This document shows, one piece after another, positions 1 through 23,025 of a stretch of 64,000 nucleotides of DNA. Source of the DNA: Promethearchaeota archaeon (GTDB lineage Archaea > Asgardarchaeota > Lokiarchaeia > Sigyniarchaeales > SOKP01); NCBI GenBank assembly GCA_030599585.1, contig JAUVNS010000004.1, positions 96,001 to 160,000 on the forward strand, given 5' to 3'. The notes below the pieces were generated by a model that saw only the letters and a program-made list of their open reading frames with translations, searched no databases and was not told where the DNA came from. Each line of letters opens with the position of its first letter. Position 1 is the stretch's first letter. A program made the position numbers and the translations under genes.

Positions 1-1398
1 AATCTTCGAAGTTTTGAGCAAGCCCAACTAGTAGGAGCACCATTTATTGCTACTAACGAAAAAAATATGGGGGGCTTACCAAATAGAACAAACGATCCTG
101 CCGAAGAAATAATAGACGATTTAGTGAGTGGTAAATTTCCGGGTGTCCTTATCTTAGACCCGATTAAAGCCGGCGTAGTTGCTGCTGAAACGGCAATAAA
201 AGTCCGCCCAATTAGAAATTCTCGAAGCGCTGTTCCCGATGAGGAAGGTTGCATCCAAATGGCCTACAACTGCAATGGATGCGGTAATTGTCAGCGTAAT
301 TGCCCTAACGATTTACCCATTGTTGAAGGAGTTCGATTAGCGAAAGATGGTGATTTTTCATTATTAGAGAGCGTTTTTGACGATTGTTTAGATTGTGGGC
401 GCTGTGAAGCCGATTGTATGAAAGATGTATCTCCACTAACGCTTATAATGCATGCGGGAAGAGATAAAATCAGAAATGAGAGGTTTAATGTTCGAGTAGG
501 ACGAGGACCTATACAAGACACAGAGATTCGAAATGTTGGAGCTCCGATCGTATTAGGAGAAATACCAGGGATAATTGCGATTATTGGATGTGCAAGTTAT
601 GGAAAAGATATACAAGAACTATATAAACTCGCTGAAGAATTCTGCATAAGAAATTACATTGTAGTAGTTTCCGGTTGTGGGGCTATGGATATCGGTTTAG
701 TAAAGGATGAAGATGGAAATACACTTTATGATAGATTTCCTGGGGACTTTGATAGAGGATGTCTGGTTAATGTTGGTTCTTGCGTTTCAAATCCACACAT
801 TACTGGTGCTGCGATGAAAGTAGCAAATATTTTTGCAAGACGTCCGTTACGAGGAAACTTCGAAGAAATTGCCGATTACATCTTACATAGAGTTGGAGCT
901 GTTGGCGTTGCGTGGGGTGCTATGTCTCAAAAAGCTGCCAGCATAGCCAGTATGGCAAATGGATTGGGTGTTCCAGCCGTAGTGGGTCCACATGCAGCAG
1001 AATATCGACGGGCATATGTTGGTCGATCTGACAACGAAGATTCGTGGAAAGTATATAACGCAAGAGACGGAACTGCTGACCATGTAGTTGGACCAGGACC
1101 TGAACATTTATTAGTTACTGCTGAATCTATTGAACAAGCTATATGTTTAGTTGCAAAATTGTGTTTAAGACCTGCTGATAACTCAAAGGGTAGGATGATT
1201 AAGTTATCTCATTGGATGGATTTAGAACGAAAATATAAGGGAGTCGATTTTCCAAACGATTTAGAAAAATTCATTCGGGTAGAAGCGGATATTCCTATTA
1301 ACATGAAAGACGAAATCGTAGCATTTTTAAAAGAAAAAGGTTGGAAACCAAAGGAAATTATAGATCCAACTTTGCTCAAAAGAATGTGTCATACATAA
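1..1398 (+). CDS. cdhA: CO dehydrogenase/acetyl-CoA synthase complex subunit alpha, 5'-truncated by the window edge
   Basis: Frame is open from base 1 (NLRSFEQAQ...). Contains two CxxCxxCxxxC(P) ferredoxin motifs and the archaeal CdhA motifs GRGPI.D.EIRNVG, GSCVSNPH, AWGAMSQKA and RPADNSKGR. Confidence 0.93.
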   Translation, partial: NLRSFEQAQLVGAPFIATNEKNMGGLPNRTNDPAEEIIDDLVSGKFPGVLILDPIKAGVVAAETAIKVRPIRNSRSAVPDEEGCIQMAYNCNGCGNCQRNCPNDLPIVEGVRLAKDGDFSLLESVFDDCLDCGRCEADCMKDVSPLTLIMHAGRDKIRNERFNVRVGRGPIQDTEIRNVGAPIVLGEIPGIIAIIGCASYGKDIQELYKLAEEFCIRNYIVVVSGCGAMDIGLVKDEDGNTLYDRFPGDFDRGCLVNVGSCVSNPHITGAAMKVANIFARRPLRGNFEEIADYILHRVGAVGVAWGAMSQKAASIASMANGLGVPAVVGPHAAEYRRAYVGRSDNEDSWKVYNARDGTADHVVGPGPEHLLVTAESIEQAICLVAKLCLRPADNSKGRMIKLSHWMDLERKYKGVDFPNDLEKFIRVEADIPINMKDEIVAFLKEKGWKPKEIIDPTLLKRMCHT

Positions 1399-10976: not shown

Positions 10977-13900
10977 CCTTCCTTAACGATTTTAGGATTA
11001 AAAATAGTCGACACTTCATTTTTTCCTACTCTAGCAACTCCAATTAACTTGTCTGCAAGAAGATAAAGAGCGTTTGATGATTTTGGTAAGAATAGTAGCA
11101 TTTGAATAGAATTATTCTCAAGAGTTGATTTTATCATGGTATACGAAGCTTCCGAATTCCTATCATCCAAAAACATCCCAGCTTCGTCAAGCATTACAAT
11201 AGGTGAGCTTTTAATCTCTAAAAGGGATAAAATTAACCCAATAGATATCATGGAAATCTGACCTCCGCTTAAAGCCTTGCATGATTTTAACTGATCCTTA
11301 GAGATTGCAGCTTTAATCTCTATTCCTAAATCTTCAAATTTCCCTATTAACTCAAGCGTACAATAAGCTTTAATATCCGTAGACTTAAATTTATCATTGA
11401 TTCTCGAATTTAGTTTTTTTAAAACTAGATGGAATTTGTCGAAATAAGTGTCTTCCAATTTATTTTCAGTTTTAATCGCCGATTTTATATCTATTTCTAT
11501 CTCTCTCTGATTTTTTGTAATTTCTTTTAAACCCTTTAGAATTTGTTCTTTTTCGACCAAGATACTATCATCTATATCGAAATATTTCAAGAGCTCTTTG
11601 TCGATGTTCAATAAATCTCGATTTATCTCTTGAATAGGTCGAAGTGATATTACTTCTTCTTCAATTAACGGACCAATTTCAGATATGACTCGCTTTAAGT
11701 CATCTTCTTTGACCCCTAATTCGCGTGAAATTGAAGTCTGCTTAAAAATCTCTTGTTCTAACCTTAAATTTAGTTGAATATAAGAAGAATCAATTTCTTT
11801 CTTTTCATTCAGGGTTATTTTTTTCTTTTCTTTTAACTCTGAGATGACATTGTTGACATTTAATAATTCTTCTTCAAGGTTTTCCAAGGCTGTATAAATT
11901 CTAAAAGCTTTTTTATCTGACTTTTCGAACGCGTCTTTTTTTGAATTATAATTATCTTCAGATGACTTTAAATCGCTGCTTTGGTAATTAATTTCCTCAC
12001 TGATCTCTTTTAGAGATTCGAGGTTTTCATTAAATTTTTCTTCCCATTTTTTTAATTCGTTGTTGTAATTATTTAGTTCACCGGGAATTTCCTTTATTCT
12101 TTTGTTCCATTCAAAGAATTCGGGGTCTTTCTGAGACTCTAAATCGTTGAGTTTTTGGGACACTTCGTTTAGGTTGTCATCAAACTCTTTATTACGCTGT
12201 TCTAAAGAGTAAATCAAGTTATAATGATGATTCTTCTTAGTAGTTAACCTTTCTTTTTGTTTAAAATTGAATAGAAGATCGGTAAAAGATTCTTTTTTTC
12301 TGAGGATTTCGTTTTGGTTCTTATCAAGTTTAGTTAGGTCTACTTTTAATTCTAAAATTTTGCTGTTTAACGATTTGATTTCTTTCTCCAAGAAATTTGA
12401 TTGCTCTTTCTGCGTTCCTGCGCTCAACAAGCCTTTTAACCTTTTTACATGAGGACTTTCGTAGACATATTTATAAGATATAATTTGTTTCCCTTGTAAT
12501 GTCACACATTTTCCCTTAAAACTACTGGTTCTGTAAATTTCTTTAGCGGACTGGTAGTCATCAACTACAATGCAATTTTTGATTATCGAATAAATAACCT
12601 TTTGGACATCGGAGTCTCCATTAATAATTTCAACCAGTTCGACTAAATACCCGATTACACCATTCGCAGCGATTTTTGGAAATGCTGTAATGTTGCTTTT
12701 TTTTGGAATATAAATGTTACAATATGCGTTATATTTCTTTTTTAGCCGCTCCATTAAATTTAATGTATCCCAATCACTCGTAATAAAGCTATTTAGTAAT
12801 CTTTCTCCAAAAACAGATTCAATTGCGTAGCTTAACTTATCATCATATTTTAGGTATTCAATTATAGGGCCCTTAACTCGATCTGATAATTCTCGTTTAC
12901 TAATTTCTTCTTTGAGAATGTTAATATTAGGCGAGAGTACAATTTTTCGTTCTCTTAACGCAGTTTGTATTCGTTTAAATTCTCTTATTTTTTTAGACTT
13001 ATCATATTCTATTCTTTCAATTTCAGCTTCAAATTTTAGTAGCTCTACTGTCACTTTTTTAAGATTTATGTCTAACTGTTTTAGTAGATCCTCTGAAGGG
13101 TTTTCTAAAAACCATTTGTTTTTAGATAACTTGTGGTCGATATCCTTCAAACTCTGAAAAATGTCGTTAATATCTTTTTTAATATCTTCAACATTATTTT
13201 CGTTTTCTTGAATGGTTCTTAGAATAACTTCCCTCTGCTGCGATAATTTGTTGTACTTCTCTAAAAAAGCTTCATTCTCTTTAATTTTCCTTATTAAATC
13301 ACTCTGTTCCTTGATAATACCATCGATTTCGTTTTTAATAAAATCTTTTTTTTTTTTAATTACATCGATTTTCTCGTCAACATTCTTTTTCTGATTTCGA
13401 ATATTCTCTAAGTTTTTCTTTTTTTCTGCTATGGTTTCTGCTAGTTTATCCAAGTCACTCATAGCATTAATTTTCTCTTTTTGCCAAGCACTAATTTCAT
13501 TTATAAATTCCTGTTTCTTATACCCTAATACACCTAACTTTTCTGAAAAAATGCTAATCTTGTTATCAATATCAAGAATAGTTTTCTCTTTTTCATTGAT
13601 TTTATTTTGATATTCATCAACTTCTTTTCTGTTAATGTCAATTTGGTTTTCGATTTCATTAAGCTTGACTTCTAATTCTTCAATTTCTTTTTGTAGTTCT
13701 CCTTTATTTGCCCAAAGTAACTCATCTGTGTATTTTTTTCTAATATCTAATAATTTATTTTTCTCGGTCAATCGTTTTAATTGTGGTGTCAACAGATCCA
13801 AGTTAATATTTAGAGCATTTTTTCTTGAAATTAACGATTGAAATTCAGCGTTTAATGCCAATACGCCTTTTTTTTGTTGGAGGATTTCATCTCTAAGTCC

Positions 13901-14464
13901 TTTTAATCCAATTCCCTCTTCTAGAAATGAGCAAAGTTCTATTGGTTTTAAATTTTTTATAGCATCAATTTTTCCTTGGCTTACGAACGCAAACTGATTA
14001 TCAGGATTGATATCTAGCTTGGAGACTAGTTTTTGAACTTCAGTTACGTGAGCTTTCTTGAATTCTTTGTCCTTATCAAGTTGTAATTCAAAAAAAGGGG
14101 ATTTCCCTTTTACTACAGTTCTTCGAATTTTAATAATCTCGGTGTGATGTTGAATGTGAAGCTCTACCATAGCGTGTGCTTGGTCGTTTCTTATAAAATC
14201 AGACCATTTTTTATATCTTTCATCTCTTTCGTTACTCCCTAAAGCAAATTTAATAGCTTGAAAAATTGAAGTCTTACCGCTCCAATTCGGACCAATTATT
14301 AAAACAAAACGAGGAATACCTTTATTTTTTTCAGTTGAAAAATTTACTTCATCCCTTTGGAAAGATAAAAAATTCTCTAATATAACCTTGCGTATATAGG
14401 TACCAGTCTCGATTAGTGATTTATCTTGGGTGTCAGTAGTGTTTTTCTTACTGGAAGAAGCCGT
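10973..14464 (-). CDS. Smc5/6-like SMC ATPase (about 1163 aa; start extended to ACG at 14464)
   Basis: 98 in-frame codons upstream of the track's ATG (14170) encode YIRKVILENFLSF and Walker A GPNWSGKTS. Also has INPDNQFAFVSQ (Q-loop), coiled coils, hinge VKGPI, LSGGQ, IVMLDE, and QMLLFLP (Pro in place of the H-loop His, as in Smc5/6). Confidence 0.88.
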   Translation of the reverse strand, partial: TASSSKKNTTDTQDKSLIETGTYIRKVILENFLSFQRDEVNFSTEKNKGIPRFVLIIGPNWSGKTSIFQAIKFALGSNERDERYKKWSDFIRNDQAHAMVELHIQHHTEIIKIRRTVVKGKSPFFELQLDKDKEFKKAHVTEVQKLVSKLDINPDNQFAFVSQGKIDAIKNLKPIELCSFLEEGIGLKGLRDEILQQKKGVLALNAEFQSLISRKNALNINLDLLTPQLKRLTEKNKLLDIRKKYTDELLWANKGELQKEIEELEVKLNEIENQIDINRKEVDEYQNKINEKEKTILDIDNKISIFSEKLGVLGYKKQEFINEISAWQKEKINAMSDLDKLAETIAEKKKNLENIRNQKKNVDEKIDVIKKKKDFIKNEIDGIIKEQSDLIRKIKENEAFLEKYNKLSQQREVILRTIQENENNVEDIKKDINDIFQSLKDIDHKLSKNKWFLENPSEDLLKQLDINLKKVTVELLKFEAEIERIEYDKSKKIREFKRIQTALRERKIVLSPNINILKEEISKRELSDRVKGPIIEYLKYDDKLSYAIESVFGERLLNSFITSDWDTLNLMERLKKKYNAYCNIYIPKKSNITAFPKIAANGVIGYLVELVEIINGDSDVQKVIYSIIKNCIVVDDYQSAKEIYRTSSFKGKCVTLQGKQIISYKYVYESPHVKRLKGLLSAGTQKEQSNFLEKEIKSLNSKILELKVDLTKLDKNQNEILRKKESFTDLLFNFKQKERLTTKKNHHYNLIYSLEQRNKEFDDNLNEVSQKLNDLESQKDPEFFEWNKRIKEIPGELNNYNNELKKWEEKFNENLESLKEISEEINYQSSDLKSSEDNYNSKKDAFEKSDKKAFRIYTALENLEEELLNVNNVISELKEKKKITLNEKKEIDSSYIQLNLRLEQEIFKQTSISRELGVKEDDLKRVISEIGPLIEEEVISLRPIQEINRDLLNIDKELLKYFDIDDSILVEKEQILKGLKEITKNQREIEIDIKSAIKTENKLEDTYFDKFHLVLKKLNSRINDKFKSTDIKAYCTLELIGKFEDLGIEIKAAISKDQLKSCKALSGGQISMISIGLILSLLEIKSSPIVMLDEAGMFLDDRNSEASYTMIKSTLENNSIQMLLFLPKSSNALYLLADKLIGVARVGKNEVSTIFNPKIVKEG

Positions 14465-14484
14465 CTTTTATCTCACCTACTTAC

Positions 14485-15768
14485 TTAATACTTTCCAAAC
14501 GCTCTCTTTAAATTATCGATACGTTTCTTTGCTTTTTCTAAATTGATTTGAGCCATCTTTGGACTATCGTTTAGAATAAACGCATATTTTGCCATTATTT
14601 TTCTCTCAATTTCTTCTAAATGCTCGTTCTTGTTTAATTTATCAATTATCAGCACAAGCTCGCTGTAATTTTTTGATACTGCGTTTTCGTACAACTGATT
14701 TAACATAAAATCTGTGAATCTTTCCTCTTTAATTTCATTCCTTAAATTTTGAGCGTAAACATTTCTATTTTCTGCATTTCTTCCATACATAGAATTTTTG
14801 TTAGAAAATTCATCGCTTTTGAAGAACTCTGAATCTTTTATATTTTGTTTCGTTTCTGGAGTAGTAGGAATATACTCTCCTGATTCAATCAAATTAATCA
14901 AGCCATCGGTAATTTCATTACTCGACTCATTTAATTCAGAATTGAGAAAATGTTTAAATATCCCTATTCTTAATAGTTGAATTAAGTCTTTTACCTCCCA
15001 AGTTTCTGTGTAATCTACTAATGTCTTGATATCAAACACAATTTTCGGATTTTTTTCAGAAAAAGCTCTAAATATCGTTTCTCTTTCCGCCTTATCTAAA
15101 ATTGGAACTTTGATAAAAAAATCAAACACATCAAAAATCAATTGCGAACTTTCTTTGATTTCCTTCATTGTATTATTTATCCAGATTAATATCAATCCAT
15201 CTTTTACAAAATTTGCCCTATTCTTATAGGATACCATAAAAAGTTCTAACAAATTTTTCCCATTTAAGTTAAGGCTGGAAAATTTCTGTTGGTCTAAAAC
15301 TAATAATCCTTTTATTTTAGATTGTTCAGGATCGTGTTCATTTGATTGAGGTTTTTCGTTGTTTTTTGTTTCATTTTCTCTATTCTTCACCGTTCGTTTT
15401 ATTACATCCTCTAAAATGTCAATTAGATTAGAAATAAAGACGTCAGGAGCCTTGACGATTTCCTCACGATTCAATTCAAAGAAATTTAAATAGTAATTTT
15501 TAGATATTAATTTTAAATAATCTACGATATCAGTTCCAGGATTTACTTTTATCAATATCGCACCTTTAGGGTGAATAAACTTATCATAACTCTGAACAAC
15601 TGATTCCTCGTCATTTGTTAAAACAATTTTCAGATAATTTATAATATCGTTATACTTATCTCGATAAAAAATCTCCTCTCTATCAATTTCAATTTCATTT
15701 GGTGTAATTACCCGATAGTACTTAGAGAATTCTATATCGTTATCTATATCTTCCATAGAGAAGTTCAT
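14485..15768 (-). CDS. Degenerate (Walker-less) classical AAA+ ATPase-like protein
   Basis: PKGAILIKVNPGTD occupies the position of PKGILLYGPPGTGKT; LLVLDQ at Walker B; FDFFIKVPILDKAERETIF...LVDYTETWEVKDL resembles the AAA lid. Confidence 0.6.
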   Translation of the reverse strand: MNFSMEDIDNDIEFSKYYRVITPNEIEIDREEIFYRDKYNDIINYLKIVLTNDEESVVQSYDKFIHPKGAILIKVNPGTDIVDYLKLISKNYYLNFFELNREEIVKAPDVFISNLIDILEDVIKRTVKNRENETKNNEKPQSNEHDPEQSKIKGLLVLDQQKFSSLNLNGKNLLELFMVSYKNRANFVKDGLILIWINNTMKEIKESSQLIFDVFDFFIKVPILDKAERETIFRAFSEKNPKIVFDIKTLVDYTETWEVKDLIQLLRIGIFKHFLNSELNESSNEITDGLINLIESGEYIPTTPETKQNIKDSEFFKSDEFSNKNSMYGRNAENRNVYAQNLRNEIKEERFTDFMLNQLYENAVSKNYSELVLIIDKLNKNEHLEEIERKIMAKYAFILNDSPKMAQINLEKAKKRIDNLKRAFGKY

Positions 15769-16009: not shown

Positions 16010-16267
16010 TTATTTTTTTCCGCCAGTACCATGCATACAGAAAAATCCGCCTTCTAGTTCGTACTTTGGAAATAATCCACAACCAAAGCAACTACAACCA
16101 TAATCCTTAACTTCGGACATTGGTTTTTCAGTTTTTCCACGGGAACAAAACAATGCATGTGGCTCAAATTCGTTTAATTTATTAGGTTTGAACGATGGAC
16201 AAGGACCACAGAATTTACGACATTCACTCATACTTTCCTCGTCATCGGGAACCGGTTTTGGAGTCAT
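16010..16267 (-). CDS. Small Cys-rich metal-binding protein (DUF2769-like)
   Basis: CxxxCxxCPSF...LFCSRGK...GCxCxxC...FFCxxG. Confidence 0.75.
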   Translation of the reverse strand: MTPKPVPDDEESMSECRKFCGPCPSFKPNKLNEFEPHALFCSRGKTEKPMSEVKDYGCSCFGCGLFPKYELEGGFFCMHGTGGKK

Positions 16268-16431
16268 ATTACTTAAACCTATATTTAGATGTGTTTTTAA
16301 TATTTATTAAAATTCTAATTACTATCGAAATGTCCTTTTTAGCTATTAAATTTAATATTTATAGATTATTAATTTTTAGGCGTATTGATACTTCCTTGAT
16401 GTATTCAACACAAAAAATGGTTAGAATTAAT

Positions 16432-16824
16432 TCATTCTAAAGCTAAATTTTGATTAAAAGTTGTTAAGTTATTCTTCAATTCTTCTTTAAATAGGTGGTA
16501 GAAGGTGAATTTCTGCTTTTTATATCCTTGAATTAACCCCACAGCAACTAACTTTCTTAAATGATGAGATATTGTTGATTGTGATTTATTCAATATCGTT
16601 TCTAACTCACAAACGCACCTATCTTGCTTTTTCAAGGCATTAATAATGATTAGTCGCTCTTTTGATGCAATTGCAGATGTAAATCTTTCAATAGCGTCTA
16701 AATTCTTATTCTCTTCCAACATTTTGCCCAATTTTAGTAACTTATCGAAATCAGGGTTTGAATCTGAACAATCTTTACAGTCACATAACATCTTTTTAAT
16801 TTCTTGAGCTCTTTTTTGTTTCAT
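16432..16824 (-). CDS. arsR: ArsR/SmtB metalloregulator
   Basis: CVCEL alpha3 As(III)-type site, SQSTISHHLRKL HTH and an extra N-terminal CxCxxC. Divergent from acr3. Confidence 0.88.
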   Translation of the reverse strand: MKQKRAQEIKKMLCDCKDCSDSNPDFDKLLKLGKMLEENKNLDAIERFTSAIASKERLIIINALKKQDRCVCELETILNKSQSTISHHLRKLVAVGLIQGYKKQKFTFYHLFKEELKNNLTTFNQNLALE

Positions 16825-17037
16825 AAGGTGCCAATTTTAAAAATATCTCTTGTATATATAGAATGAATAAATCGATAAATATAAATTTATAGGATTTGAA
16901 GCTCCATATTCACTCAAATCGATAACCTTAAATTTAACGTAGAATATTATATCTCAAGTTTCATCAACAAATAACATGAATTTTATAACTAAAATCAAAA
17001 AGGAATATAGAGTTAAAAAAGATAATTCAAAACCAGA

Positions 17038-18159
17038 TTGATGCTTATGGTTGAAGATGGTATTGAAAGTGAAGCAATAAATAATTTAGATAAATCAGAA
17101 GAAGCAAAACAAAAATCAAGAAAGATTAATTATTTCGAAAAGCTTCTTCCGATTTGGGTGGTACTATGTATCATCATTGGTATACTTCTCTCCCAATTTA
17201 TACCCGAATTAAGTCAAGCAATAAATTCTTTGCAAATTGGAGGTATTTCTATACCAATTGGAATTTGTTTGTTTTTAATGATGTACCCTGCGATGTTAAA
17301 TCTACAAGCATCAGAATTAAAAAAACTACGCAAAAACCCAAAACCTATAGTATTAACATTAATTTCTAATTGGCTCATTGCTCCTTTTGTGGGTTTGGCG
17401 ATGATTAATATATTTCTACCTGGTACAACCGAAGATATACAACAATTAAAAGTTGCGATAATTTTACTCTCAAGTTCGCCTTGTACAGCTATGGTGTTAG
17501 TGTGGGGATGGATGGCAAAAGGTAATCAAGAACAAAATGTAGTTAATACAAGCTTAAATACGATTACTATAATCTTTTTGTACGTAGGAATGGTTTCTTT
17601 ATTAACTAGCATTCAAAATATTCTCACGCCTGGGATTGTTGTTGATCCATGGTTGTTGTTAATCTCTTTAGTATTCTTCATTGGTATTCCGTTGTTATTA
17701 GGAATTGTAAGCAAGAGATTAATTATCACTTCGAAAGGATTATCGTGGTTTAATGATAGCTATAAACCATTTGTAGGAAAAATTTCAATTGTTGCTTTAT
17801 TGACAACTTTAGTGGTTTTGTTTTCCCTAAATGGCGATGTTCTTATAAATAATCCTGATTTGCTGCTACTAATCTCAATTCCACTCTTAGTAGGTTTTGT
17901 AATAGTGGTTGCTTACAACGTTTTTATTACTAAGATTTTTAAAATGAAGTATAAAGAAGCGATTATAACAATAATTATCGGCTCATCTAGTCACTTTGAA
18001 ATTGCTATCGCAACAGCCGTCGCAATGTATGGCGTTGGGTCCATAGCGGCTTTAGGAACTACAATGGGTTTATTTTGGGAAGTACCTGTTATGCTAGCAA
18101 TGGTATATCTTGGAAAATTCCTTGGGAAACGAGGATTTTGGAAATCTAATTCAAATTAA
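17038..18159 (+). CDS. acr3: Acr3 arsenite/antimonite efflux permease
   Basis: Motifs LMMYP, NWLIAPF, PCTAMVLVW, SSHFEIAIA and EVPVM. The start may be the ATG at 17041 or 17047. Confidence 0.93.
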   Translation: MMLMVEDGIESEAINNLDKSEEAKQKSRKINYFEKLLPIWVVLCIIIGILLSQFIPELSQAINSLQIGGISIPIGICLFLMMYPAMLNLQASELKKLRKNPKPIVLTLISNWLIAPFVGLAMINIFLPGTTEDIQQLKVAIILLSSSPCTAMVLVWGWMAKGNQEQNVVNTSLNTITIIFLYVGMVSLLTSIQNILTPGIVVDPWLLLISLVFFIGIPLLLGIVSKRLIITSKGLSWFNDSYKPFVGKISIVALLTTLVVLFSLNGDVLINNPDLLLLISIPLLVGFVIVVAYNVFITKIFKMKYKEAIITIIIGSSSHFEIAIATAVAMYGVGSIAALGTTMGLFWEVPVMLAMVYLGKFLGKRGFWKSNSN

Positions 18160-18187
18160 CAAAAACATATTAAAAAACTAAATAGGA

Positions 18188-19864
18188 TTGATAATAATGG
18201 CAGTAGTGTATATGCGTAAACTCGAACAAGAACCAGATAGCTACGATTCTAAATTCACAGCACTTACAAAGGGAGTAAATTTAAGCGTTAGAGAATGGAT
18301 ACTTAATAAAACTGGTAATTCTCAATCAATTCTGGAGGTTGGATGTGGGACTGGAAGCCTCGCCTCTAAAATGGCGTTAAAAGGAAATGATGTTACTGCG
18401 ATAGATATAAATTTTCAAATGATAAATCACGCAATGCAGAATTTTCCTCCAGATTTAAAGGAAGGAACGCTCTTATACCAAACTGGATCATTTTCCAACA
18501 TGCCTGTAGAAGAAAGGTCTCAAGATTTAGTCATTAGTACGTTTATGCTTTCAGAACTTCGACCTTTTGAACAACAAATCTTCCTTAGAAATGTTTGGAA
18601 AGTATTAAAACCAAATGGAAGATTATTAATCGCAGCAGAATTTATTCCAGATGGTTTTTGGAAGCTAATCTTTAAAATAAAAAGATGGAGATATAAAAAG
18701 AAACTTAGGCGTCTTAAATTAAGGAGCACTTTTCTGCTAAAATGGTTCTTTAGATATATCGAACCAATTGGATTCAAAATCAAAGCAAAAGAAGACTGGA
18801 AACACGGAACAATTCAAGCTCTCGAACTGATAAAACATGACGATATAGAAATTAATGAACCAGGATATTATCAACCTAGCCCAAAACGATTCAAAGGGAT
18901 AATATCGCAGCTAAGAATATATCGTTGCATTTACACAGGCCAAATTGATCTCGTTCCAATCGATCCTGGTATTTACAAATCTGGTAATCCTACTGAATCT
19001 TCTCCTATAATAGTGACAGCTAATTATGAATTCACCTACATCAAAGTAATGAGAGATCTTAAAGGTATTGATGCATGGGTATTATGTGTTGATTCTAACG
19101 GAATTAATGTGTGGTGTGCTGCGAGAGGAAATGATTTTGGAAATAATCAACTAATCGAGGCTGTTGAAGCTACTGGTATTGAAAGATTAACTAATAAAAA
19201 AACATTAATTCTCCCACAATTATCTGCAGGAGGAGTAGCCACTCCAGAATTGCAGAAAAAATCTAATGATTTTTCTTTTAGAGTTGTTTATGGACCTGTT
19301 TGGTCTAAAGATTTACCCGAATATCTTGAAAAACGCCCTGCTCGAAAACCCGATAGAATGAAGCTTGCTAAATTCACTCTAAAACATCGATTTCGTGGTT
19401 TTATCACGCACACAACATTTCTATTAAGAAAGATTTTCATGTTACCTCTCATAAGTTTATTCGTTGTGTTTCTTATCCTTAACTCTCTTAATATAACGGC
19501 TAAATTATGGTGGGTTGGTGAATTATTACTCTGGATAGTTACAGCAAATTTCATCATAACTTTTACATATCCGATTGCAAATTTCACTCGTCGGTTTATT
19601 ATTAAGGGAATTTTCTTTGGGACTTTGAATGTTTTTATTTTGGGAATGTTCTCTTATTTATTTCATAATTCGATATTTTTCACACTTATGAACATTAGTT
19701 TTTTCTTTTGGATTTCATTTTTTTCAACAATGTCGTTAAGTGGGTATACAATGGCTACTAGCCCTAGTGAAATACAAGAAGAGTATCCCATTTTTAGTAT
19801 TTTAAATAAAGTTTTATTAACCATAAGTTTGATTTCATTAGTGATTGGAATCGTTTTTCTCTAA
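18188..19864 (+). CDS. Fusion of class I SAM-dependent methyltransferase, HgcA-like corrinoid-binding domain and C-terminal TM domain
   Basis: N-terminal ILEVGCGTG, AIDIN and LKPNGRL. Central PGIY..GNP...SPIIVTANY, GINVWCAARG (cap helix), LILPQL and YGPV..KDLPEYL. Four to five TM helices ending TMATSPS. Confidence 0.88.
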   Translation: MIIMAVVYMRKLEQEPDSYDSKFTALTKGVNLSVREWILNKTGNSQSILEVGCGTGSLASKMALKGNDVTAIDINFQMINHAMQNFPPDLKEGTLLYQTGSFSNMPVEERSQDLVISTFMLSELRPFEQQIFLRNVWKVLKPNGRLLIAAEFIPDGFWKLIFKIKRWRYKKKLRRLKLRSTFLLKWFFRYIEPIGFKIKAKEDWKHGTIQALELIKHDDIEINEPGYYQPSPKRFKGIISQLRIYRCIYTGQIDLVPIDPGIYKSGNPTESSPIIVTANYEFTYIKVMRDLKGIDAWVLCVDSNGINVWCAARGNDFGNNQLIEAVEATGIERLTNKKTLILPQLSAGGVATPELQKKSNDFSFRVVYGPVWSKDLPEYLEKRPARKPDRMKLAKFTLKHRFRGFITHTTFLLRKIFMLPLISLFVVFLILNSLNITAKLWWVGELLLWIVTANFIITFTYPIANFTRRFIIKGIFFGTLNVFILGMFSYLFHNSIFFTLMNISFFFWISFFSTMSLSGYTMATSPSEIQEEYPIFSILNKVLLTISLISLVIGIVFL

Positions 19865-19916
19865 TAAAAAATAATACAAAAATTAAAAAGAAATTGATAT
19901 TTAAGAGGTATGTATA

Positions 19917-20279
19917 ATGACTGAAGCAGAATTTAAAGCAAGTTTAAGTAAATTATCTATAAAGGATTTTAAAATATTTATAAATGAAAGCTTATGCAAC
20001 AAGTGTGGTTTATGTGCAGAAGTGTGTCCTTTTGGGCTTCCACAACAAACAGATTCCGGAAAATACGATATTAAAAATCATGAACTATGTACTGAATGTA
20101 GTGCTTGTAAGAGGAATTGCCCCGTAAATGCGATCATTATGAACGAAAAGAAGGGGTGCGGTTGTTTATGGAACGCTAGAGCAAACGCAAAAAATTCCAA
20201 ATCAGGAAATAAAGACATAAATAATTGTGGTTGTGGTCCAGAAAACGAAAGTGAAACAACTTCAAGTTGTTGCGGTTAA
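19917..20279 (+). CDS. HgcB-like 2[4Fe-4S] ferredoxin with a Cys-rich tail
   Basis: CNKCGLCAEVCP and CTECSACKRNCP, then GCGC, CGC and terminal SSCCG. Directly follows the HgcA-like gene. Confidence 0.85.
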   Translation: MTEAEFKASLSKLSIKDFKIFINESLCNKCGLCAEVCPFGLPQQTDSGKYDIKNHELCTECSACKRNCPVNAIIMNEKKGCGCLWNARANAKNSKSGNKDINNCGCGPENESETTSSCCG

Positions 20280-20331
20280 AATGGTATCAAATTTTACTAT
20301 AATTTTGAACTAAAAAACATTGATTTAAAAG

Positions 20332-20790
20332 GTGGAAAAAATGGAAAAAGAAGAAATAAAAATATCGGTTAACGAAAACCAAAATAGTCAAATAAGTTTA
20401 GAGGAATCATGCTGCGGAACGTCAAATTCTTGTTGTGGTTCATCAGATTCTTGTTGTGAGGGTTCAACTTCAAAGGAATCGCCTAATACTCAAGAAATTA
20501 ATTTGAAAGAGACAGCAAATGTAGATACGAATAAAATATCTGTAGATGTATATGTTCCTCTAAACGCTTGCGAATGCGTTTGGTCTCAATTTATGAACCT
20601 TGTATTTTCGGCACTTAGCCCTTACATGAAACACATAAGGTTTGAAACAAAAGACTTAGACTCTGACGAAGCTCGAAAACTTAATTTAAATGGAAATTGC
20701 GTTGTCGTTGATGGTACAAAGAAATACATTACTTCATTCGCATTAAAGAAAGATTTACCTGTACTTCTAAAGGAAAAAGGGCTATTATAA
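20332..20790 (+). CDS. Cys-Cys-rich putative metallochaperone with thioredoxin-like C-terminal domain
   Basis: SCCGTSNSCCGSSDSCC in a low-complexity N-terminus, followed by VYVPLNACECVW and CVVVDG. Confidence 0.65.
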   Translation: MEKMEKEEIKISVNENQNSQISLEESCCGTSNSCCGSSDSCCEGSTSKESPNTQEINLKETANVDTNKISVDVYVPLNACECVWSQFMNLVFSALSPYMKHIRFETKDLDSDEARKLNLNGNCVVVDGTKKYITSFALKKDLPVLLKEKGLL

Positions 20791-20833
20791 AATTAAGTTG
20801 TTTATTTTTTTCTCTATAAAAAGGTGATTTTAG

Positions 20834-21304
20834 ATTAAAAAAATTAAATTAACAATTTTTGGACCTGAAAAAGAGCTCGCAAACGGAATTGAGTACGAAG
20901 TATCTATCGAGGAAGAAGGATCGATAATTGAAGCATTGGCTGCTATAGATAGACAGCTCCTTAACAACCCCAAGCTTTCACCGTTTCCATTGTATAAAGG
21001 ACTAATTAAGAGCTATCTCCAATTAATCTGGGACCCCCAAAAAAACGCTATTTACGAAGACTGTGCAAGTAATGCCTATGGGCCGAACAAAGAGTTTATG
21101 CCTCTTCTGGATGATGTAAACTTCAACCTTTATCAGAACAGCGATATAACTCTTATAGTCCACGCCGATTGATGAGCTGATAACATGAGAGAACGCTTAG
21201 ATTACGGTTCATTTAAAAGAGTAATCATGAAAAAATATGGAAAAGACCACGAAACTTTTGCTCAATACTTCATAATAAAATTAAAAAATCAAAAGCAGGG
21301 ATGA
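20834..21304 (+). CDS. Candidate selenoprotein with a beta-grasp-like pattern, ATT start and UGA-UGA at 21170-21175
   Basis: AGGTGA RBS at 20822-20827 and ATT at 20834 extend the track ORF by 34 codons (MKKIKLTIFGPEKELANGIEYEV...). Then HAD-TGA-TGA and 42 more sense codons to TGA 21302. A SECIS-like hairpin lies at 21301-21336. The minimal CDS is 20834-21172. Confidence 0.55.
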
Positions 21305-21363
21305 TATCTTTCAATAAACTTTAGTGGAAGATTGACAACAGGATTGCCTCCTATTTGCTTTGA
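21292..21363 (+). promoter_or_regulatory. Eukaryote/Lokiarchaeota-type SECIS-like element
   Basis: AUGAU (21301-05), stem AUCUUUCA (21306-13) paired with UGGAAGAU (21325-32), AAA at 21316-18 (11 nt after AUGA) and 3' core UGAC (21333-36). Possible lower helix AAAGCAGG/UUUGCUUU. A T9 tract follows. Confidence 0.6.
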
Positions 21364-21594
21364 ATTACTATTTTTTTTTAATTACATGAATAGAAAGAAT
21401 AACTCTAAATTTATACATGATTGAATTTTTAAATGATCCTTTAGGTTTCAAATACGCTATTTTCTCAAATCTCACTCAAAACATTTAAAAATTTCTAAGG
21501 AACATTAATCCCCAATTCTCTCAATTCATGAACTCAGTCGATGTGAGAAAAAAATAAAAAAAAAATTTATTTGAAAATTTATTTATTCAGGTTT

Positions 21595-23025
21595 CTAGTC
21601 GTAAAAAATTAAACCCCAATCTGGTCTTTCTATGGGTTGCATATTCACAAGTTTACCGGAAGGTTCGGCAGTAGGCCCACCATATGGATCGCTAGGATAA
21701 ATACCCACTCCGGGAACTAATATCTTTGATCCATTAAACCACTGGAGAGCAAGAGCAGTACCATATGGCCAGCCCTCTACAATGCAGTGACTGGCATCAA
21801 AGGCTGCCCATCCAGAAGATCCTTCAAGTGGATTCGCTGTTGTAATTCCTTCTAGTGCTGTTATAACCGCATCAGTATTGAGCGACTGGGACGCGTTAAA
21901 TGCATAAGCATAAGCATATATAGCGTCGTAACTACCAGTAGAAGTATAGATTGGTGAGACACCAAATTCCGCAACATAAGCATCCCAGAAATCAAGCGTT
22001 AGTGAAGTTTTATTTGTCTGAAATATTGATTCCAAACTAATTCCATATTCAACCAATCCATTAGTATCATCCCAAAAGTCGCCATCTTGCGCTAAAACAT
22101 TAATTCCGATCGGGATACAGCCGGGTTTATAAGTACCATATGAGTTCGCAAAAGTTAATCCTGCTGAACCAGAGATTATTGGGATTACTATTTGTGTATT
22201 GGAAGCATTGACAGTAGCCCAATGAGCTGCCATTTCTACCGGAGTAACATCTTGTGGAAATGCAATATCCACTCCAGTATATGTAAGATTAAAATTTGAG
22301 TTACTTGTCAGATGGTATGCCATAAGCGCTTGAAAGCCAGCAGTCCAGCTTAGATCTTCTCTCATAAACGAAAATCGGGTTACATTATGACCAGTCCCAC
22401 CATATATAAGCGGTTGAGACATTCCCGCTGCTGAACCGATTATTAATGCTATTAACTCCATTGCTAAAGCGGTTGTGTTTATCGGGTTTATTTGGAAGAA
22501 ATATTTATATGTGTCGTAATCTGAGAGAACACTTGCGCTGAAAGCTGAGGGTGCAGCACCAGTATTTATAAAGATGATCTCACTTTCCATGAATAAGCCT
22601 CGATATGCGCCTAATGCTTCGGTTCTAAATCCTCCCGTAGCGAAATGAACTTGTTTATAATTAATCAAACGTTCTACGGCAGCAACTGCTTTTGCCGGAT
22701 CGAGAATAGGATTAGCTTCGTCTGTATTTTCGTACGTAATCCCAATATAGTATGTTTTTCCTCCTATTACTATACCACCTGCTGAGTTTATCTCATATGC
22801 GGCTAACCTTGCCCCATTAAGTTGTCCTTCACCTTGTATACGCTCTGTATCACCCGAAACTCCTATTCTTATGATCTGATCTTCAGTTATATTCGTTGGA
22901 GCACCAGGAGCATCTGCAGCAGTCCATTGATATGGAGCCACAAATATCCATACAGTAACTCCAACACCAATTCCAATTACTGCGATTAGAACAATTGCTA
23001 ATATTCTTTTAGTTAAAGATTCCAT
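21595..23025 (-). CDS. Liv-type (HAAT) ABC transporter substrate-binding protein, membrane-anchored
   Basis: N-terminal TM; GARLAAYEINSAGG, GGFRTE and YDAIY periplasmic-binding-protein motifs. Confidence 0.9.
   Translation of the reverse strand: MESLTKRILAIVLIAVIGIGVGVTVWIFVAPYQWTAADAPGAPTNITEDQIIRIGVSGDTERIQGEGQLNGARLAAYEINSAGGIVIGGKTYYIGITYENTDEANPILDPAKAVAAVERLINYKQVHFATGGFRTEALGAYRGLFMESEIIFINTGAAPSAFSASVLSDYDTYKYFFQINPINTTALAMELIALIIGSAAGMSQPLIYGGTGHNVTRFSFMREDLSWTAGFQALMAYHLTSNSNFNLTYTGVDIAFPQDVTPVEMAAHWATVNASNTQIVIPIISGSAGLTFANSYGTYKPGCIPIGINVLAQDGDFWDDTNGLVEYGISLESIFQTNKTSLTLDFWDAYVAEFGVSPIYTSTGSYDAIYAYAYAFNASQSLNTDAVITALEGITTANPLEGSSGWAAFDASHCIVEGWPYGTALALQWFNGSKILVPGVGIYPSDPYGGPTAEPSGKLVNMQPIERPDWGLIFYD

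What the first reader, a model, noticed from the sequence alone, without database searches (positions are those of the whole stretch)
16010..21380. ArsR-linked island joining arsenite efflux, a corrinoid methyl-transfer module and a possible selenoprotein
Seen: [Cys-rich DUF2769-like, arsR] diverge from [acr3, MTase-HgcA-like, HgcB-like, CC-rich protein, UGA-containing ORF with SECIS-like hairpin], with gaps of only 28-52 nt. No arsC or stand-alone arsM is present. Known: HgcAB methylates Hg, and hgcAB is sometimes linked to ars genes. Inference: an As(III)-inducible, cobalamin-dependent metal(loid) methylation or detoxification pathway, possibly acting on As/Sb rather than or in addition to Hg, with dedicated thiol and selenol carriers.
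Basis: partly seen in the sequence, partly recalled or inferred. Interest (0 to 1): 0.88.

Follow-up and report, generated by a model that had tools for sequence, protein, structure and literature searches.

The report
Asgard arsenic operon with Sec-Sec protein
This is a conserved arsenic-type resistance operon of Loki-type Asgard archaea that also carries a vitamin-B12-type methyl-transfer enzyme related to the mercury methylase, and it ends in a small ubiquitin-shaped protein with two adjacent selenocysteines that the published selenoprotein lists I read do not contain.

Summary
DUF2769 and arsR diverge from acr3, a SAM-methyltransferase::HgcA-like fusion, an HgcB-like ferredoxin, a Cys-rich thioredoxin-fold CxC protein and a UGA-containing ORF, with gaps of 28-52 nt.

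The last ORF is very probably a real selenoprotein:
- In-frame TGA-TGA is present in every one of about 150 listed homologs, from 138 of 400 genomes of the phylum.
- The 40-codon tail is coding and in frame.
- A covarying Asgard-type SECIS follows, and the ORF's own stop lies in its AUGA.
- The same SECIS model finds the hdrA and frhD loci of this genome, which also has Sec-type selD and SepSecS.
- It is absent from the Asgard selenoproteomes of 2016, 2024 and 2026.

The fold is a beta-grasp like SAMP/MoaD, with Sec-Sec at the Gly-Gly position.

The HgcA-like protein is not a true HgcA. It scores below NCBIfam cut-offs, its cap helix is NVWCAARG, and it lies outside the GK clade. It belongs to the CpaM-fused HgcAB-like group of unknown function.

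The arsenic link holds within Asgard: a CVC-type ArsR, Acr3, and ArsM at the same position in some relatives. Three distant fusions lack it, and no substrate is shown.

This scan found the same family before on other genomes.

The parts
16010..16267 (-). DUF2769 Cys-rich protein (85 aa), downstream of arsR on the same strand
   Evidence: PF10967, E 3.3e-10. The arsR-DUF2769 pair is conserved in 5 of 6 same-genus genomes fetched. It is absent in L013/L074, L006 and L011, where DUF166 precedes acr3 instead.
16432..16824 (-). ArsR/SmtB metalloregulator with invariant alpha-3 CVCELE and N-terminal LCxC
   Evidence: NF033788, 65.7 bits against a cut-off of 55. PF01022, E 1.9e-16. C14, C16, C70 and C72 are invariant in 8 orthologs at 48-91% identity.
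16869..16925 (.). Two copies of AAATCGATAA (16869-16878 and 16916-16925), each followed by an A/T box, in the arsR-acr3 divergent intergenic region. These are candidate operator/promoter elements (inferred).
   Evidence: Both blocks are invariant in 5 genomes, while the rest of the spacer diverges. There are 3 copies in the window against 0.71 expected. The third copy lies inside a coding region.
17038..18159 (+). Acr3 arsenite efflux permease
   Evidence: TIGR00832, 274.8 bits against a cut-off of 282.8, covering 2-325 of 327 profile positions. PF01758, E 8.5e-38. PCTAMV motif at residue 148.
18188..19864 (+). Fusion protein of three parts: a CpaM-type class I SAM methyltransferase (about residues 1-215), an HgcA-like corrinoid-binding domain (about residues 240-400, cap helix NVWCAARG at 19106-19129), and a C-terminal membrane domain (residues 409-558)
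   Evidence: NF043040, 141.5 bits (cut-off 180). NF040863, 178.4 (cut-off 275). NF043039, 184.5 (cut-off 285). PF03599, E 1.4e-16. Cap helix and alignment. Hydrophobic segments and the single Cys in the methyltransferase domain. Tree. The protein is 64-93% identical in more than 120 Asgard proteins and present in 143 of 400 genomes of the phylum.
19917..20279 (+). HgcB-like 2x[4Fe-4S] ferredoxin with a Cys-rich tail (GCGC, CGCG, terminal CCG)
   Evidence: NF040864, 47 bits (cut-off 99); Fer4 families. Cys positions. It always follows the fusion gene, including in distant lineages.
20332..20790 (+). CxC protein: a variable CC-rich N-terminal tail followed by a conserved thioredoxin-fold domain with C-x-C at the CxxC position
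   Evidence: No Pfam or NCBIfam family. Model pLDDT 93. Thioredoxin fold, Z up to 10.3. C17 and C19 are at least 90% conserved. It lies upstream of the UU gene in nearly all loci.
20834..21304 (+). Beta-grasp selenoprotein. It has an ATT start, 112 residues, then UGA-UGA (21170-21175) read as Sec-Sec, then a 42-residue helical tail. Its stop is the UGA at 21302-21304.
   Evidence: Translation. In-frame TGA-TGA in all listed homologs. The tail is coding and in frame. ATT start in 30 of 34. Model pLDDT 89. SAMP1/MoaD/Urm1-like fold. Database entries are truncated or read 'WW'.
21293..21360 (+). Asgard eSECIS-like element. It consists of the AUGA core (21301-21304), helix 21306-21312/21326-21332, an A-rich apical loop, UGA on the 3' side (21333-21335), and a second hairpin 21338-21343/21349-21354.
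   Evidence: Alignment A1. Pair counts: 96.2% paired, 7 compensatory pairs, 0 of 500 shuffles. Model R1 scores 76 bits here and also hits the 3' ends of the hdrA and hdrA-frhD loci of the same genome.
21371..21379 (+). T9 tract after the SECIS, the likely end of the transcription unit (inferred)
   Evidence: Read directly from the sequence.

Best explanation
This is a vertically inherited operon of Loki-type Asgard archaea for handling a thiophilic metalloid, most likely As(III)/Sb(III). It is controlled by a CVC-type ArsR.

Proposed roles of the products:
- Acr3 exports the metalloid.
- The thioredoxin-fold CxC protein, with its CC-rich tail, and the beta-grasp protein are soft-ligand carriers. 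The latter has a flexible arm bearing two adjacent selenocysteines at the position of the Gly-Gly end of SAMP/MoaD-type carriers. Both would capture the metalloid and pass it on.
- The membrane-anchored CpaM::HgcA-like protein, with its HgcB-like ferredoxin, is a SAM-to-cobalt-to-substrate methyl-transfer machine built like HgcAB. The ferredoxin reduces Co to Co(I). The fused class I methyltransferase loads CH3 from SAM. The Cys-ligated CH3-Co(III) then gives the methyl group to a metal(loid) held by vicinal Cys/Sec.

What is shown:
- Gene content, order and conservation.
- Sec decoding signals.
- Folds.
- Retention of the Co-ligating Cys and the membrane domain.
- The ArsR Cys sites.

What is inferred: the substrate, the hand-over, the direction of methyl transfer, and regulation by As(III).

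My odds for the parts:
- Real Sec-Sec selenoprotein: 0.93.
- Operon concerned with As/Sb or a similar soft metal(loid): 0.65.
- The HgcA-like module methylates that metal(loid): 0.25.
For: Selenoprotein:
- TGA-TGA is in frame in all of about 150 listed matches from 138 of 400 genomes, at 36-99% identity. This includes five distant families.
- The flanks differ between two subfamilies (HAD-UU-AD versus GC-UU-E), but both sides are conserved as protein.
- The tail has 0 of 34 in-frame stops, against 33 and 34 of 34 in the other frames, and shows an excess of third-position changes.
- Subfamily B has no start codon after the UGAs.
- The SECIS shows covariation. Its model also finds the hdrA/frhD SECIS elements of this genome.
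- The genome has two selD genes with in-frame TGA and SepSecS at 473 bits.

Link to ars genes:
- ArsR has an invariant CVC.
- Acr3 is present.
- Of the 30 best UU loci, 12 follow fusion+HgcB, 14 follow Acr3 directly, and one is Acr3-ArsM-UU.
- By my reading, at least 38 genomes have the fusion within about 3.5 kb of a UU gene.
- L011 has ArsM inside the same operon.

Methyl-transfer module:
- The NVWC cap-helix Cys is invariant, the membrane domain is kept, and an HgcB-like partner is always adjacent.
- SAM is the methyl donor of true HgcAB (PMC11588087).
- An ArsR-like regulator that responds to As and SAH controls hgcAB in strain ND132 (10.1101/2022.10.17.512643).

Folds.
Against:
- The HgcA-like domain fails every equivalog cut-off and lies outside the true HgcA clade. 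A fused relative did not methylate Hg (PMC10083202).
- Three distant CpaM-HgcA fusions have no ars neighbours.
- L009 has ArsR-fusion-HgcB followed by an EamA transporter and flavin reductases, with no Acr3, CxC or UU.
- In many genomes the fusion and Acr3-CxC-UU are at different places.
- The ArsR Cys pattern (N-terminal CxC plus alpha-3 CVC) also fits CadC-type Cd/Pb sensors. This comparison is from my own knowledge.
- The genome already has a canonical ArsM.
- tRNA-Sec was not found with ARAGORN or RF01852.
- The PSTK candidate is below cut-off.
- The beta-grasp domain matches the cobalamin-binding beta-domain of transcobalamin as well as it matches SAMP1 (Z 8.0 against 7.9).
Confidence: 0.6

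Rival explanations
1. There are two separate modules that only sometimes sit together. Acr3-CxC-UU would be the arsenic or soft-metal efflux and chaperone unit. The CpaM::HgcA-like/HgcB-like pair would have another native job, such as methylating a thiol, a cofactor or another small molecule. It would be under an ArsR/SahR-type regulator because it consumes SAM.
For: - Acr3-CxC-UU occurs without the fusion in 14 of 30 loci, and the fusion is elsewhere in those genomes.
- L009 has ArsR-fusion-HgcB-EamA without Acr3, CxC or UU.
- Distant fusions have no ars genes. One sits next to a URO-D family (MT2-like) gene.
- The ND132 regulator also responds to SAH (10.1101/2022.10.17.512643).
Against: - Even L009 keeps the CVC-type ArsR.
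- The fusion sits between acr3 and CxC-UU, or directly before a UU gene, in at least 38 genomes of several genera.
- ArsM takes the same position in L026 and sits beside the fusion in L011.
- The HgcB-like tail and the neighbouring proteins are rich in vicinal Cys/Sec, which suits a metal substrate.
Confidence: 0.25
2. The fusion plus the HgcB-like protein is a true mercury methylase. The operon would then be a Hg(II) handling and methylation system, with Sec and Cys carriers for Hg.
For: - The architecture matches HgcAB: a Cys-on cap helix, a membrane domain and a ferredoxin with a terminal CC.
- Selenols and vicinal thiols bind Hg(II) very tightly (established chemistry).
- Many true HgcA proteins carry a CU motif (10.1101/2022.07.06.499078).
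Against: - NF040863 scores 178 bits against a cut-off of 275.
- The cap helix lacks the GK found in all 89 stand-alone HgcA representatives.
- The protein is placed outside the GK clade with support of 95-99.
- The fused-clade relative from P. furiosus did not methylate Hg (PMC10083202).
- The transporter in the operon is Acr3, not a mer-type or P-type Hg/Cd pump.
Confidence: 0.08
3. CxC plus UU is a redox pair rather than a passive carrier. The thioredoxin-fold CxC protein would recycle a selenenylsulfide or diselenide on the UU arm. This would reduce As(V), or another oxidised substrate, in a genome with no recognisable ArsC.
For: - No ArsC is above cut-off in a MAG rated 100% complete.
- The CxC lies at the thioredoxin active-site position.
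- The GC-UU arm of subfamily B recalls the GCUG arm of thioredoxin reductase (my own knowledge).
- CxC and UU are neighbours in nearly all loci.
Against: - No reductase domain or phosphate/arsenate-binding loop is seen.
- L026 has UU without CxC.
- The habitat of these archaea is anoxic, where As(III) prevails (general knowledge).
- Earlier scan notes report arsC beside UU in other genomes. I did not check this here.
Confidence: 0.12
4. TGA-TGA is an ordinary double stop. The 112-residue beta-grasp protein would be complete, and the downstream 40 codons would be a separate small gene or non-coding.
For: - Gene callers end the ORF there, and most database entries are about 118 aa long.
- Subfamily A has an ATG four codons after the UGAs.
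- tRNA-Sec was not found.
Against: - The frame and the protein sequence are conserved across the UGAs in all listed homologs.
- Subfamily B and L043 have no ATG there.
- The tail has 0 of 34 in-frame stops, against 33-34 of 34 in the other frames.
- A covarying SECIS of the organism's own type follows directly.
- Gene callers that used code 4 read straight through, giving 'WW'.
Confidence: 0.04

Closest known systems
HgcA/HgcB mercury methylation pair (e.g. Pseudodesulfovibrio mercurii ND132)
   Same: - A corrinoid domain of the CdhD/CFeSP type with the NVWC cap helix and its Co-ligating Cys.
- A C-terminal membrane domain.
- An adjacent 2x[4Fe-4S] ferredoxin with a terminal vicinal Cys pair.
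- SAM as methyl source in HgcAB (PMC11588087).
- An ArsR-like regulator upstream (10.1101/2022.10.17.512643).
   Different: - It scores below the NF040863 and NF040864 cut-offs.
- The cap helix reads AARG, not A(A/G)GK.
- It lies outside the GK clade.
- It has a fused N-terminal class I SAM methyltransferase.
- It has no N-terminal CU/CC extension.
- Its substrate is unknown.
NCBIfam 'HgcAB-like fusion protein' (NF043039) with 'corrinoid protein-associated methyltransferase CpaM' (NF043040); the fused-HgcAB clade of Lin et al. 2023 (PMC10083202)
   Same: - These are the best-scoring families for both halves.
- Representatives that join CpaM to an HgcA-like domain lack the GK lysine, as this protein does.
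- Asgard sequences were already placed in the fused-HgcAB clade (PMC10083202).
   Different: - Here CpaM is fused to the HgcA-like part and HgcB is a separate gene. In the named family HgcA and HgcB are fused and CpaM is separate.
- All three scores are below the curated cut-offs.
- The ars/selenoprotein context is not part of the family descriptions available to me.
Classical ars operons (arsR-acr3/arsB-arsD-arsA-arsC, arsM)
   Same: - A divergent ArsR with a CVC site.
- Acr3 with PCTAMV.
- A small thioredoxin-fold protein with a vicinal-Cys tail in the place where ArsD-type chaperones stand.
- ArsM in the same slot in some relatives.
   Different: - There is no ArsA, ArsC or ArsD family match.
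- The chaperone candidates are orphan families.
- One of them is a Sec-Sec protein.
- A corrinoid module stands where ArsM would be.
Beta-grasp sulfur carriers and modifiers (MoaD, ThiS, SAMP1, Urm1)
   Same: The fold matches (SAMP1: Z 7.9, rmsd 3.3, 87 residues aligned). Model residues 2..115 align to SAMP1 -1..87, so the Sec-Sec pair falls at the position of the terminal Gly-Gly.
   Different: - There is no Gly-Gly end.
- U-U is followed by a helical tail of about 40 residues.
- No E1-like gene was seen in the operon.
- There is no sequence similarity.
Lokiarchaeial selenoprotein genes with eukaryote-like SECIS (SelD, FrhA/VhuU, HdrA, FrhD/VhuD, PrxL; PMC4989117, PMC11227280)
   Same: - A 3'-UTR SECIS with an AUGA..GA core and an A-rich apical loop.
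- The same covariance model hits the hdrA and frhD loci of this genome.
   Different: - The protein family is not in those lists.
- It has two adjacent Sec residues.
- No Cys-form homolog was found among about 150 listed matches.
- A second conserved hairpin follows the SECIS.
Beta-domain of transcobalamin / intrinsic factor / haptocorrin
   Same: It is an equally good structural match to the beta-grasp domain (Z 8.0, rmsd 3.0, 86 residues aligned). A corrinoid enzyme is encoded two genes upstream.
   Different: - The Z score is in the range where only a shared arrangement may be meant.
- UU genes also occur in Acr3-only operons that have no corrinoid protein.
- There is no sequence similarity.

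Membership tests
HgcA (NF040863, mercury methylation corrinoid protein) | Score at or above the curated equivalog cut-off (275 bits) | tested here: not met
   178.4 bits. True HgcA representatives score 367-419 bits.
HgcA (NF040863, mercury methylation corrinoid protein) | Cap-helix motif N(V/I)WCA(A/G)GK | tested here: not met
   The motif is NVWCAARG. NVWC and the Cys are kept, but GK is replaced. All 89 stand-alone representatives have GK.
HgcA (NF040863, mercury methylation corrinoid protein) | Co-ligating Cys and a C-terminal transmembrane domain | tested here: met
   Cys310 lies in an invariant column. Four to five hydrophobic segments lie between residues 409 and 558.
HgcA (NF040863, mercury methylation corrinoid protein) | Placement inside the clade of confirmed-type HgcA | tested here: not met
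   A quick ML tree places the window protein in a clade of AARG fusions (support 99), outside the GK clade (support 97).
HgcA (NF040863, mercury methylation corrinoid protein) | Hg(II) methylation activity | not testable with these tools
   Needs an assay.
HgcAB-like fusion protein (NF043039) / CpaM (NF043040) | Scores at or above the cut-offs (285 and 180 bits) | tested here: not met
   184.5 and 141.5 bits. The CpaM alignment is nearly full length (positions 2-212 of 216). More distant fusions pass the CpaM cut-off.
HgcAB-like fusion protein (NF043039) / CpaM (NF043040) | A methyltransferase physically associated with an HgcA-like corrinoid protein and an HgcB-like ferredoxin | tested here: met
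   The methyltransferase is fused in one polypeptide and the ferredoxin gene lies 52 nt downstream. The same arrangement is found in distant lineages.
HgcB (NF040864) | Cut-off of 99 bits; two CX2CX2CX3C motifs; C-terminal vicinal Cys | tested here: inconclusive
   47 bits, below the cut-off. Both cluster motifs and the terminal C118-C119 are present.
ArsR/SmtB metalloregulator | Family score, and the alpha-3 CVC metal(loid) site | tested here: met
   NF033788, 65.7 bits against a cut-off of 55. CVCELE is invariant in 8 orthologs. Which metal(loid) it senses was not tested.
Acr3 (TIGR00832) | Equivalog cut-off of 282.8 bits; conserved (P/R)C(T/I)AMV Cys motif | tested here: inconclusive
   274.8 bits, just below the cut-off, over 324 of 327 positions. 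PCTAMV is present.
ArsM (NF008823) | Cut-off of 263 bits and the As(III)-binding cysteines | tested here: not met
   The methyltransferase domain of the fusion scores 33-34 bits. Its only Cys lies in the GxGxG loop. A true ArsM is encoded on C21 (345 bits).
ArsD metallochaperone | Pfam ArsD match; CC...C site; ArsA partner | tested here: not met
   There is no Pfam or NCBIfam hit for the CxC protein. The site is C-x-C. The thioredoxin fold is shared. ArsD itself is not among the listed matches, which does not exclude it. ArsA was not searched for in the genome.
Archaeal (Asgard-type) selenoprotein gene | Conserved in-frame UGA with coding sequence on both sides | tested here: met
Archaeal (Asgard-type) selenoprotein gene | A 3'-UTR SECIS of the organism's type | tested here: met
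   AUGA..GA core, A-rich loop and covariation. The model also finds the hdrA/frhD SECIS elements. Rfam has no matching family.
Archaeal (Asgard-type) selenoprotein gene | Sec machinery in the genome (SelD, SepSecS, PSTK, tRNA-Sec, SelB) | tested here: inconclusive
   - SelD: two copies, each with an in-frame TGA.
- SepSecS: 473 bits.
- PSTK candidate: 155 bits, below the cut-off of 290.
- tRNA-Sec: not found.
- SelB: not searched.
Beta-grasp sulfur carriers (MoaD/ThiS/SAMP/Urm1) | Beta-grasp fold | tested here: met
   Foldseek probability 1.0 to SAMP1. VIA Z 7.9 (SAMP1), 7.3 (MoaD-related) and 6.6 (Urm1). This ties with the transcobalamin beta-domain.
Beta-grasp sulfur carriers (MoaD/ThiS/SAMP/Urm1) | C-terminal Gly-Gly that is adenylated and thiocarboxylated by an E1-like enzyme | tested here: not met
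   The sequence has U-U followed by a tail of about 40 residues instead. No E1-like gene is in the operon.

The most novel reading that the evidence does not exclude
Loki-type Asgard archaea would own a corrinoid- and SAM-dependent metalloid methylase, built like HgcAB but with its own fused SAM-loading domain. Its native substrate would be As(III) or Sb(III). That would give a genetic basis to the old observation, which I recall from memory, of methylcobalamin-dependent arsenic methylation in anaerobes. It would also point to the ancestral job of the HgcAB family. The enzyme would be served by a new kind of carrier: a ubiquitin-fold protein that has replaced the Gly-Gly sulfur-carrying end with a diselenol arm that holds the metalloid.
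Probability: 0.2. Interest if true: 0.92.

Novelty: new variant of a known kind. Interest (0 to 1): 0.8.

Why it matters
1. It adds a widespread selenoprotein family to the Asgard selenoproteome. As far as was seen, the family is obligately Sec-containing. It has two adjacent Sec residues, which is rare in any organism, and it has been missed because gene callers stop at the UGA or read 'WW'.
2. It places selenium chemistry inside an arsenic-type resistance operon. This makes the role of Sec as a soft-metal ligand testable.
3. It gives the unexplained CpaM/HgcAB-like branch of the mercury-methylase family a concrete, conserved context of ArsR and Acr3, sometimes with ArsM. This bears on the open question of what HgcAB evolved to do.
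4. The fused SAM methyltransferase fits the recent finding that SAM is the methyl donor of HgcAB.

Tried and rejected
- Rfam gave only chance-level hits in 20800-21600.
- tRNA-Sec was not found. Default ARAGORN found none. The best RF01852 hit (30 bits) is a tRNA-Leu with anticodon UAG. Relaxed ARAGORN settings gave a flood of false hits.
- The CxC and UU profiles have no sequence relatives in the PDB. UU has no Pfam family even at E <= 1.
- ArsD did not appear among the 50 listed structural matches of the CxC domain. This does not exclude it.
- Inverted repeats in the arsR-acr3 spacer were unconvincing. The conserved direct AAATCGATAA boxes are the better operator candidates.
- The sigma-70 promoter/terminator scan does not apply to an archaeon and found fewer sites than the shuffles did.
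- I looked for Cys-form (CC) homologs of the UU protein. The full-length database entries turned out to be 'WW' artefacts, and the profile search listed no stop-free match.
- I looked for ars genes next to distant CpaM-HgcA fusions and found none in three cases.
The ArsC family searches hit nothing on contig C40.

Full report
**1. What is there.**

The window is AT-rich (about 30-35% G+C) with no composition break at the locus. On the minus strand lie a DUF2769 Cys-rich gene (16010-16267) and arsR (16432-16824). On the plus strand lie five genes:
- acr3 (17038-18159)
- a 558-residue fusion gene (18188-19864)
- a 120-residue ferredoxin gene (19917-20279)
- a 152-residue CC-rich gene (20332-20790)
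- an ORF that the ORF table shows only as 78 residues (20936-21172)

The gaps are 28, 52, 52 and 43 nt. Family scans confirm the names. The best homologs are annotated as Lokiarchaeota, Promethearchaeota, Hermod-, Hod-, Heimdall- and Odinarchaeota MAG proteins.

**2. The last ORF is a Sec-Sec selenoprotein.**

The frame is open from an ATT at 20834 that directly follows a TAG stop and a GGTGAT Shine-Dalgarno box. After 112 codons come TGA-TGA, then 42 more sense codons, then TGA.

Conservation:
- In relatives the same frame continues across the two TGAs, and the protein sequence is conserved on both sides.
- There are two subfamilies..VHAD-UU-AD(N/V)M.. (this window) and ..PD(S/V/A)GC-UU-E...
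- A six-frame search of 400 genomes of the phylum finds the gene in 137 with the window's protein and in 138 with a profile of the family.
- It is present in 117 of 134 genomes of the window's own family. All genomes that carry it belong to seven families of one class.
- Every one of about 150 listed matches contains two or three in-frame TGAs, down to 36% identity.
- Members from five other families all read GC-UU.

Evidence that the tail is coding:
- The 32 codons after UU have no in-frame stop in 34 of 34 sequences. The two other frames have stops in 33 and 34 of 34.
- Differences pile up at third positions (5102, 4494 and 7453 for positions 1, 2 and 3), as they do before UU.

Database entries:
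- They are either cut at about 118 residues or read 'WW' at the site. The latter is a gene-caller artefact of code 4. One such entry comes from the original Loki's Castle metagenome.
- No Cys-form homolog was seen.

**3. The SECIS.**

Directly after the ORF lies a conserved element (window 21293-21360). It has an AUGA core, a 7-bp helix, an A-rich apical loop, UGA on the 3' side, and then a second 6-bp hairpin. In this genome the ORF's stop codon is the UGA of the AUGA core.
- On 34 sequences 96.2% of cells pair, and 7 of 13 pairs show changes on both sides.
- None of 500 shuffles, and no slid register, comes close to these values.
- This is the eukaryote-like SECIS described for Lokiarchaeia (PMC4989117, PMC11227280). 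Rfam has no model for it.
- A covariance model built from the alignment scores 76 bits here. In the same genome it also finds elements just 3' of hdrA and of two hdrA-frhD(mvhD) loci. In the two hdrA-frhD loci the known Sec position of FrhD is an in-frame TGA.

Sec machinery in the genome:
- Two selD genes, each with one in-frame TGA.
- SepSecS at 473 bits.
- A PSTK-like gene below cut-off.
- tRNA-Sec was not detected. This is the one gap in the case.

**4. Is the family known?**

The Lokiarchaeota study of 2016 lists five families (PMC4989117). The survey of more than 400 Asgard genomes in 2024 lists seven: SelD, FrhA, HdrA, FrhD, Prx-like, AhpF-N-like and DsbA-like (PMC11227280). The 2026 review repeats that set (PMC13188914). 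None of them is this protein.

Those searches relied on known families or on Cys homologs, and this family has neither. NCBIfam and Pfam have no model for it.

Earlier notes and follow-up reports of this scan describe the same family on other genomes, with the same reading. I reached it independently before opening them.

**5. Folds.**

The UU protein:
- It models with pLDDT 89 and pTM 0.86. Residues 1-112 form a beta-grasp. UU sits at 113-114 on a less confident stretch, followed by two helices.
- Foldseek's top matches are SAMP1, MoaD, Urm1 and HVO_2177.
- In the VIA second look SAMP1 gives Z 7.9, rmsd 3.3 and 87 aligned residues. Model residues 2..115 align to SAMP1 -1..87, so Sec-Sec falls where the sulfur carriers have their terminal Gly-Gly.
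- The cobalamin-binding beta-domain of transcobalamin, intrinsic factor and haptocorrin ties with this (Z 8.0). I leave that open.

The CxC protein:
- Its conserved domain models with pLDDT 93 as a thioredoxin fold (Z up to 10.3).
- C-x-C lies at the CxxC position.
- Its N-terminal tail varies in length and in its number of CC pairs.

**6. The corrinoid module.**

Methyltransferase half:
- Residues 6-212 match NCBI's 'corrinoid protein-associated methyltransferase CpaM' nearly end to end (141.5 bits, cut-off 180).
- The methyltransferase domain has the GxGxG SAM loop, and its only Cys lies in that loop. It is therefore not an ArsM-type arsenic binder.

HgcA-like half:
- Residues 256-552 match HgcA (178 bits, cut-off 275) and the HgcAB-like fusion family (184 bits, cut-off 285) about equally.
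- The cap helix keeps NVWC with the Co-ligating Cys but reads AARG instead of A(A/G)GK.
- Four to five hydrophobic segments fill residues 409-558.

Comparison with representatives:
- Among 150 cluster representatives, all 89 stand-alone proteins of about 340 residues have the GK motif.
- The forms fused to an N-terminal methyltransferase lack the lysine. One exception, which I classed as fused by length only, has GK and sits in the GK clade.
- Seven of the fused forms also carry a fused HgcB.
- A quick ML tree of the corrinoid domain puts the window's protein in a clade of AARG fusions (support 99), outside the GK clade (support 97).
- This agrees with Lin et al., who placed Asgard sequences in the fused-HgcAB clade. 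They noted that the P. furiosus member did not methylate Hg (PMC10083202).

The fusion is single-copy in 97 of 134 genomes of the window's family. More distant versions (31-37% identity) occur in other families of the phylum. Since SAM was shown to be the methyl donor of true HgcAB (PMC11588087), a fused SAM methyltransferase is a natural way to load the cobalt.

**7. How firmly are the genes linked?**

ArsR plus fusion plus HgcB-like is the most constant set. CxC lies upstream of UU in nearly all loci.

Among the 30 best UU loci:
- 12 are preceded by fusion+HgcB.
- 14 are preceded directly by Acr3.
- One is Acr3-ArsM-UU.
- The rest are cut by contig ends.

Further points:
- Comparing the places listed by eye, at least 38 genomes from several genera have the fusion within about 3.5 kb of a UU gene.
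- In many other genomes the two are far apart.
- L011 carries a 293-residue ArsM-like gene between acr3 and the fusion.
- L009 has ArsR-fusion-HgcB followed by an EamA transporter and flavin reductases, without Acr3, CxC or UU.
- Three distant CpaM-HgcA fusions keep the ferredoxin but have no ars neighbours.
- Several relatives have the block at the same place next to an SMC gene. It is therefore inherited, not a mobile island.

**8. Regulation (inferred).**

The ArsR has an invariant CVCELE in helix alpha-3. This is the position of the As(III) site of the R773 ArsR, as I recall it. It also has an invariant N-terminal LCxC. This four-Cys layout also resembles CadC-type sensors, so the effector is a soft metal(loid) but is not proven to be arsenic.

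The arsR-acr3 spacer holds two invariant AAATCGATAA boxes (16869 and 16916), each followed by an A/T-rich box, while the rest of the spacer diverges. I read these as operator-plus-TATA pairs for the two divergent promoters. In ND132 an ArsR-like regulator of hgcAB responds to arsenic and to SAH (10.1101/2022.10.17.512643).

**9. Rest of the genome.**

A canonical ArsM with its own regulator lies on contig C21 (345 bits). No ArsC of either family passes the cut-off.

**10. Verdict.**

The most solid and most novel piece is the tandem-Sec beta-grasp protein with its SECIS.

The reading of the whole as a metalloid-handling operon is well supported by context within the Asgard clade. The specific claim that the HgcA-like module methylates As or Sb is a reasonable hypothesis with about one chance in four. 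It is not a finding.

Noticed in passing
window 20820-20836, and the same position in L006-L043: The UU gene starts with ATT in 30 of 34 homologs (ATA and ATC once each, ATG twice), 5-9 nt after a conserved GGTGAT box. In this window a TAG stop lies directly before the ATT, so no canonical start can serve. A conserved weak start codon may throttle translation of a protein that needs two Sec insertions.
   Followed up: partly
P0272, P0274, P0279-P0283, P0286: Public protein entries for this family read 'WW' where the DNA has TGA-TGA, because short contigs were called with genetic code 4. One of them is LCGC14_3073660, from the original Loki's Castle metagenome. Most other entries are truncated at about 118 residues.
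   Followed up: yes
model m303ee5845a9d, residues 1-113: The beta-grasp domain aligns as well to the cobalamin-binding beta-domain of transcobalamin, intrinsic factor and haptocorrin (Z 8.0) as to SAMP1 (Z 7.9). Because a corrinoid enzyme lies two genes upstream, this could be more than a coincidence. However, UU genes also occur in Acr3-only operons.
   Followed up: partly
P0122-P0271: There is a clean split in the HgcA superfamily. Every stand-alone representative has the cap helix NVWC(A/S)(A/G)GK. The forms fused to an N-terminal SAM methyltransferase lack the lysine. One exception, which I classed as fused by length only, has GK and sits in the GK clade. Seven forms are triple fusions of methyltransferase, HgcA and HgcB.
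   Followed up: partly
L022 (three SECIS hits), L023, and G177, G184, G255: Many genomes carry two or three UU paralogs in tandem (subfamily A next to subfamily B), each with its own SECIS. Some members have a third in-frame TGA.
   Followed up: partly
G000:C34:187468-188265 and 190381-191178: Two selD genes lie 2 kb apart, each with one in-frame TGA. This fits the report that Loki/Thor archaea often have several Sec-containing SelD copies (PMC11227280).
   Followed up: no
window 10973-15768; L006, L011 and L013 upstream parts: A 1065-residue SMC-like gene and a 427-residue gene with no family match lie just upstream of the ars block. They keep this position in several Asgard relatives.
   Followed up: no
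G000:C40:22454-22933 (L002), outside the window: There is a second, weak CdhD/HgcA-like match (31% identity, E 2e-15) on the same contig, with one in-frame TAG inside a 524-residue open frame. It could be a CFeSP/Cdh subunit, or two genes.
   Followed up: no
L006 5155-5898, L011 3227-3973: In other Asgard lineages a DUF166 gene precedes acr3 in the operon. The window's genus instead has DUF2769 after arsR. Both are Cys-rich proteins of unknown function.
   Followed up: no
L080 7869-8963: Next to a distant CpaM-HgcA fusion and its ferredoxin lies a URO-D family gene. This is the family of methylcobamide:CoM-type (MT2) methyltransferases, and it hints at a thiol acceptor in that lineage.
   Followed up: no
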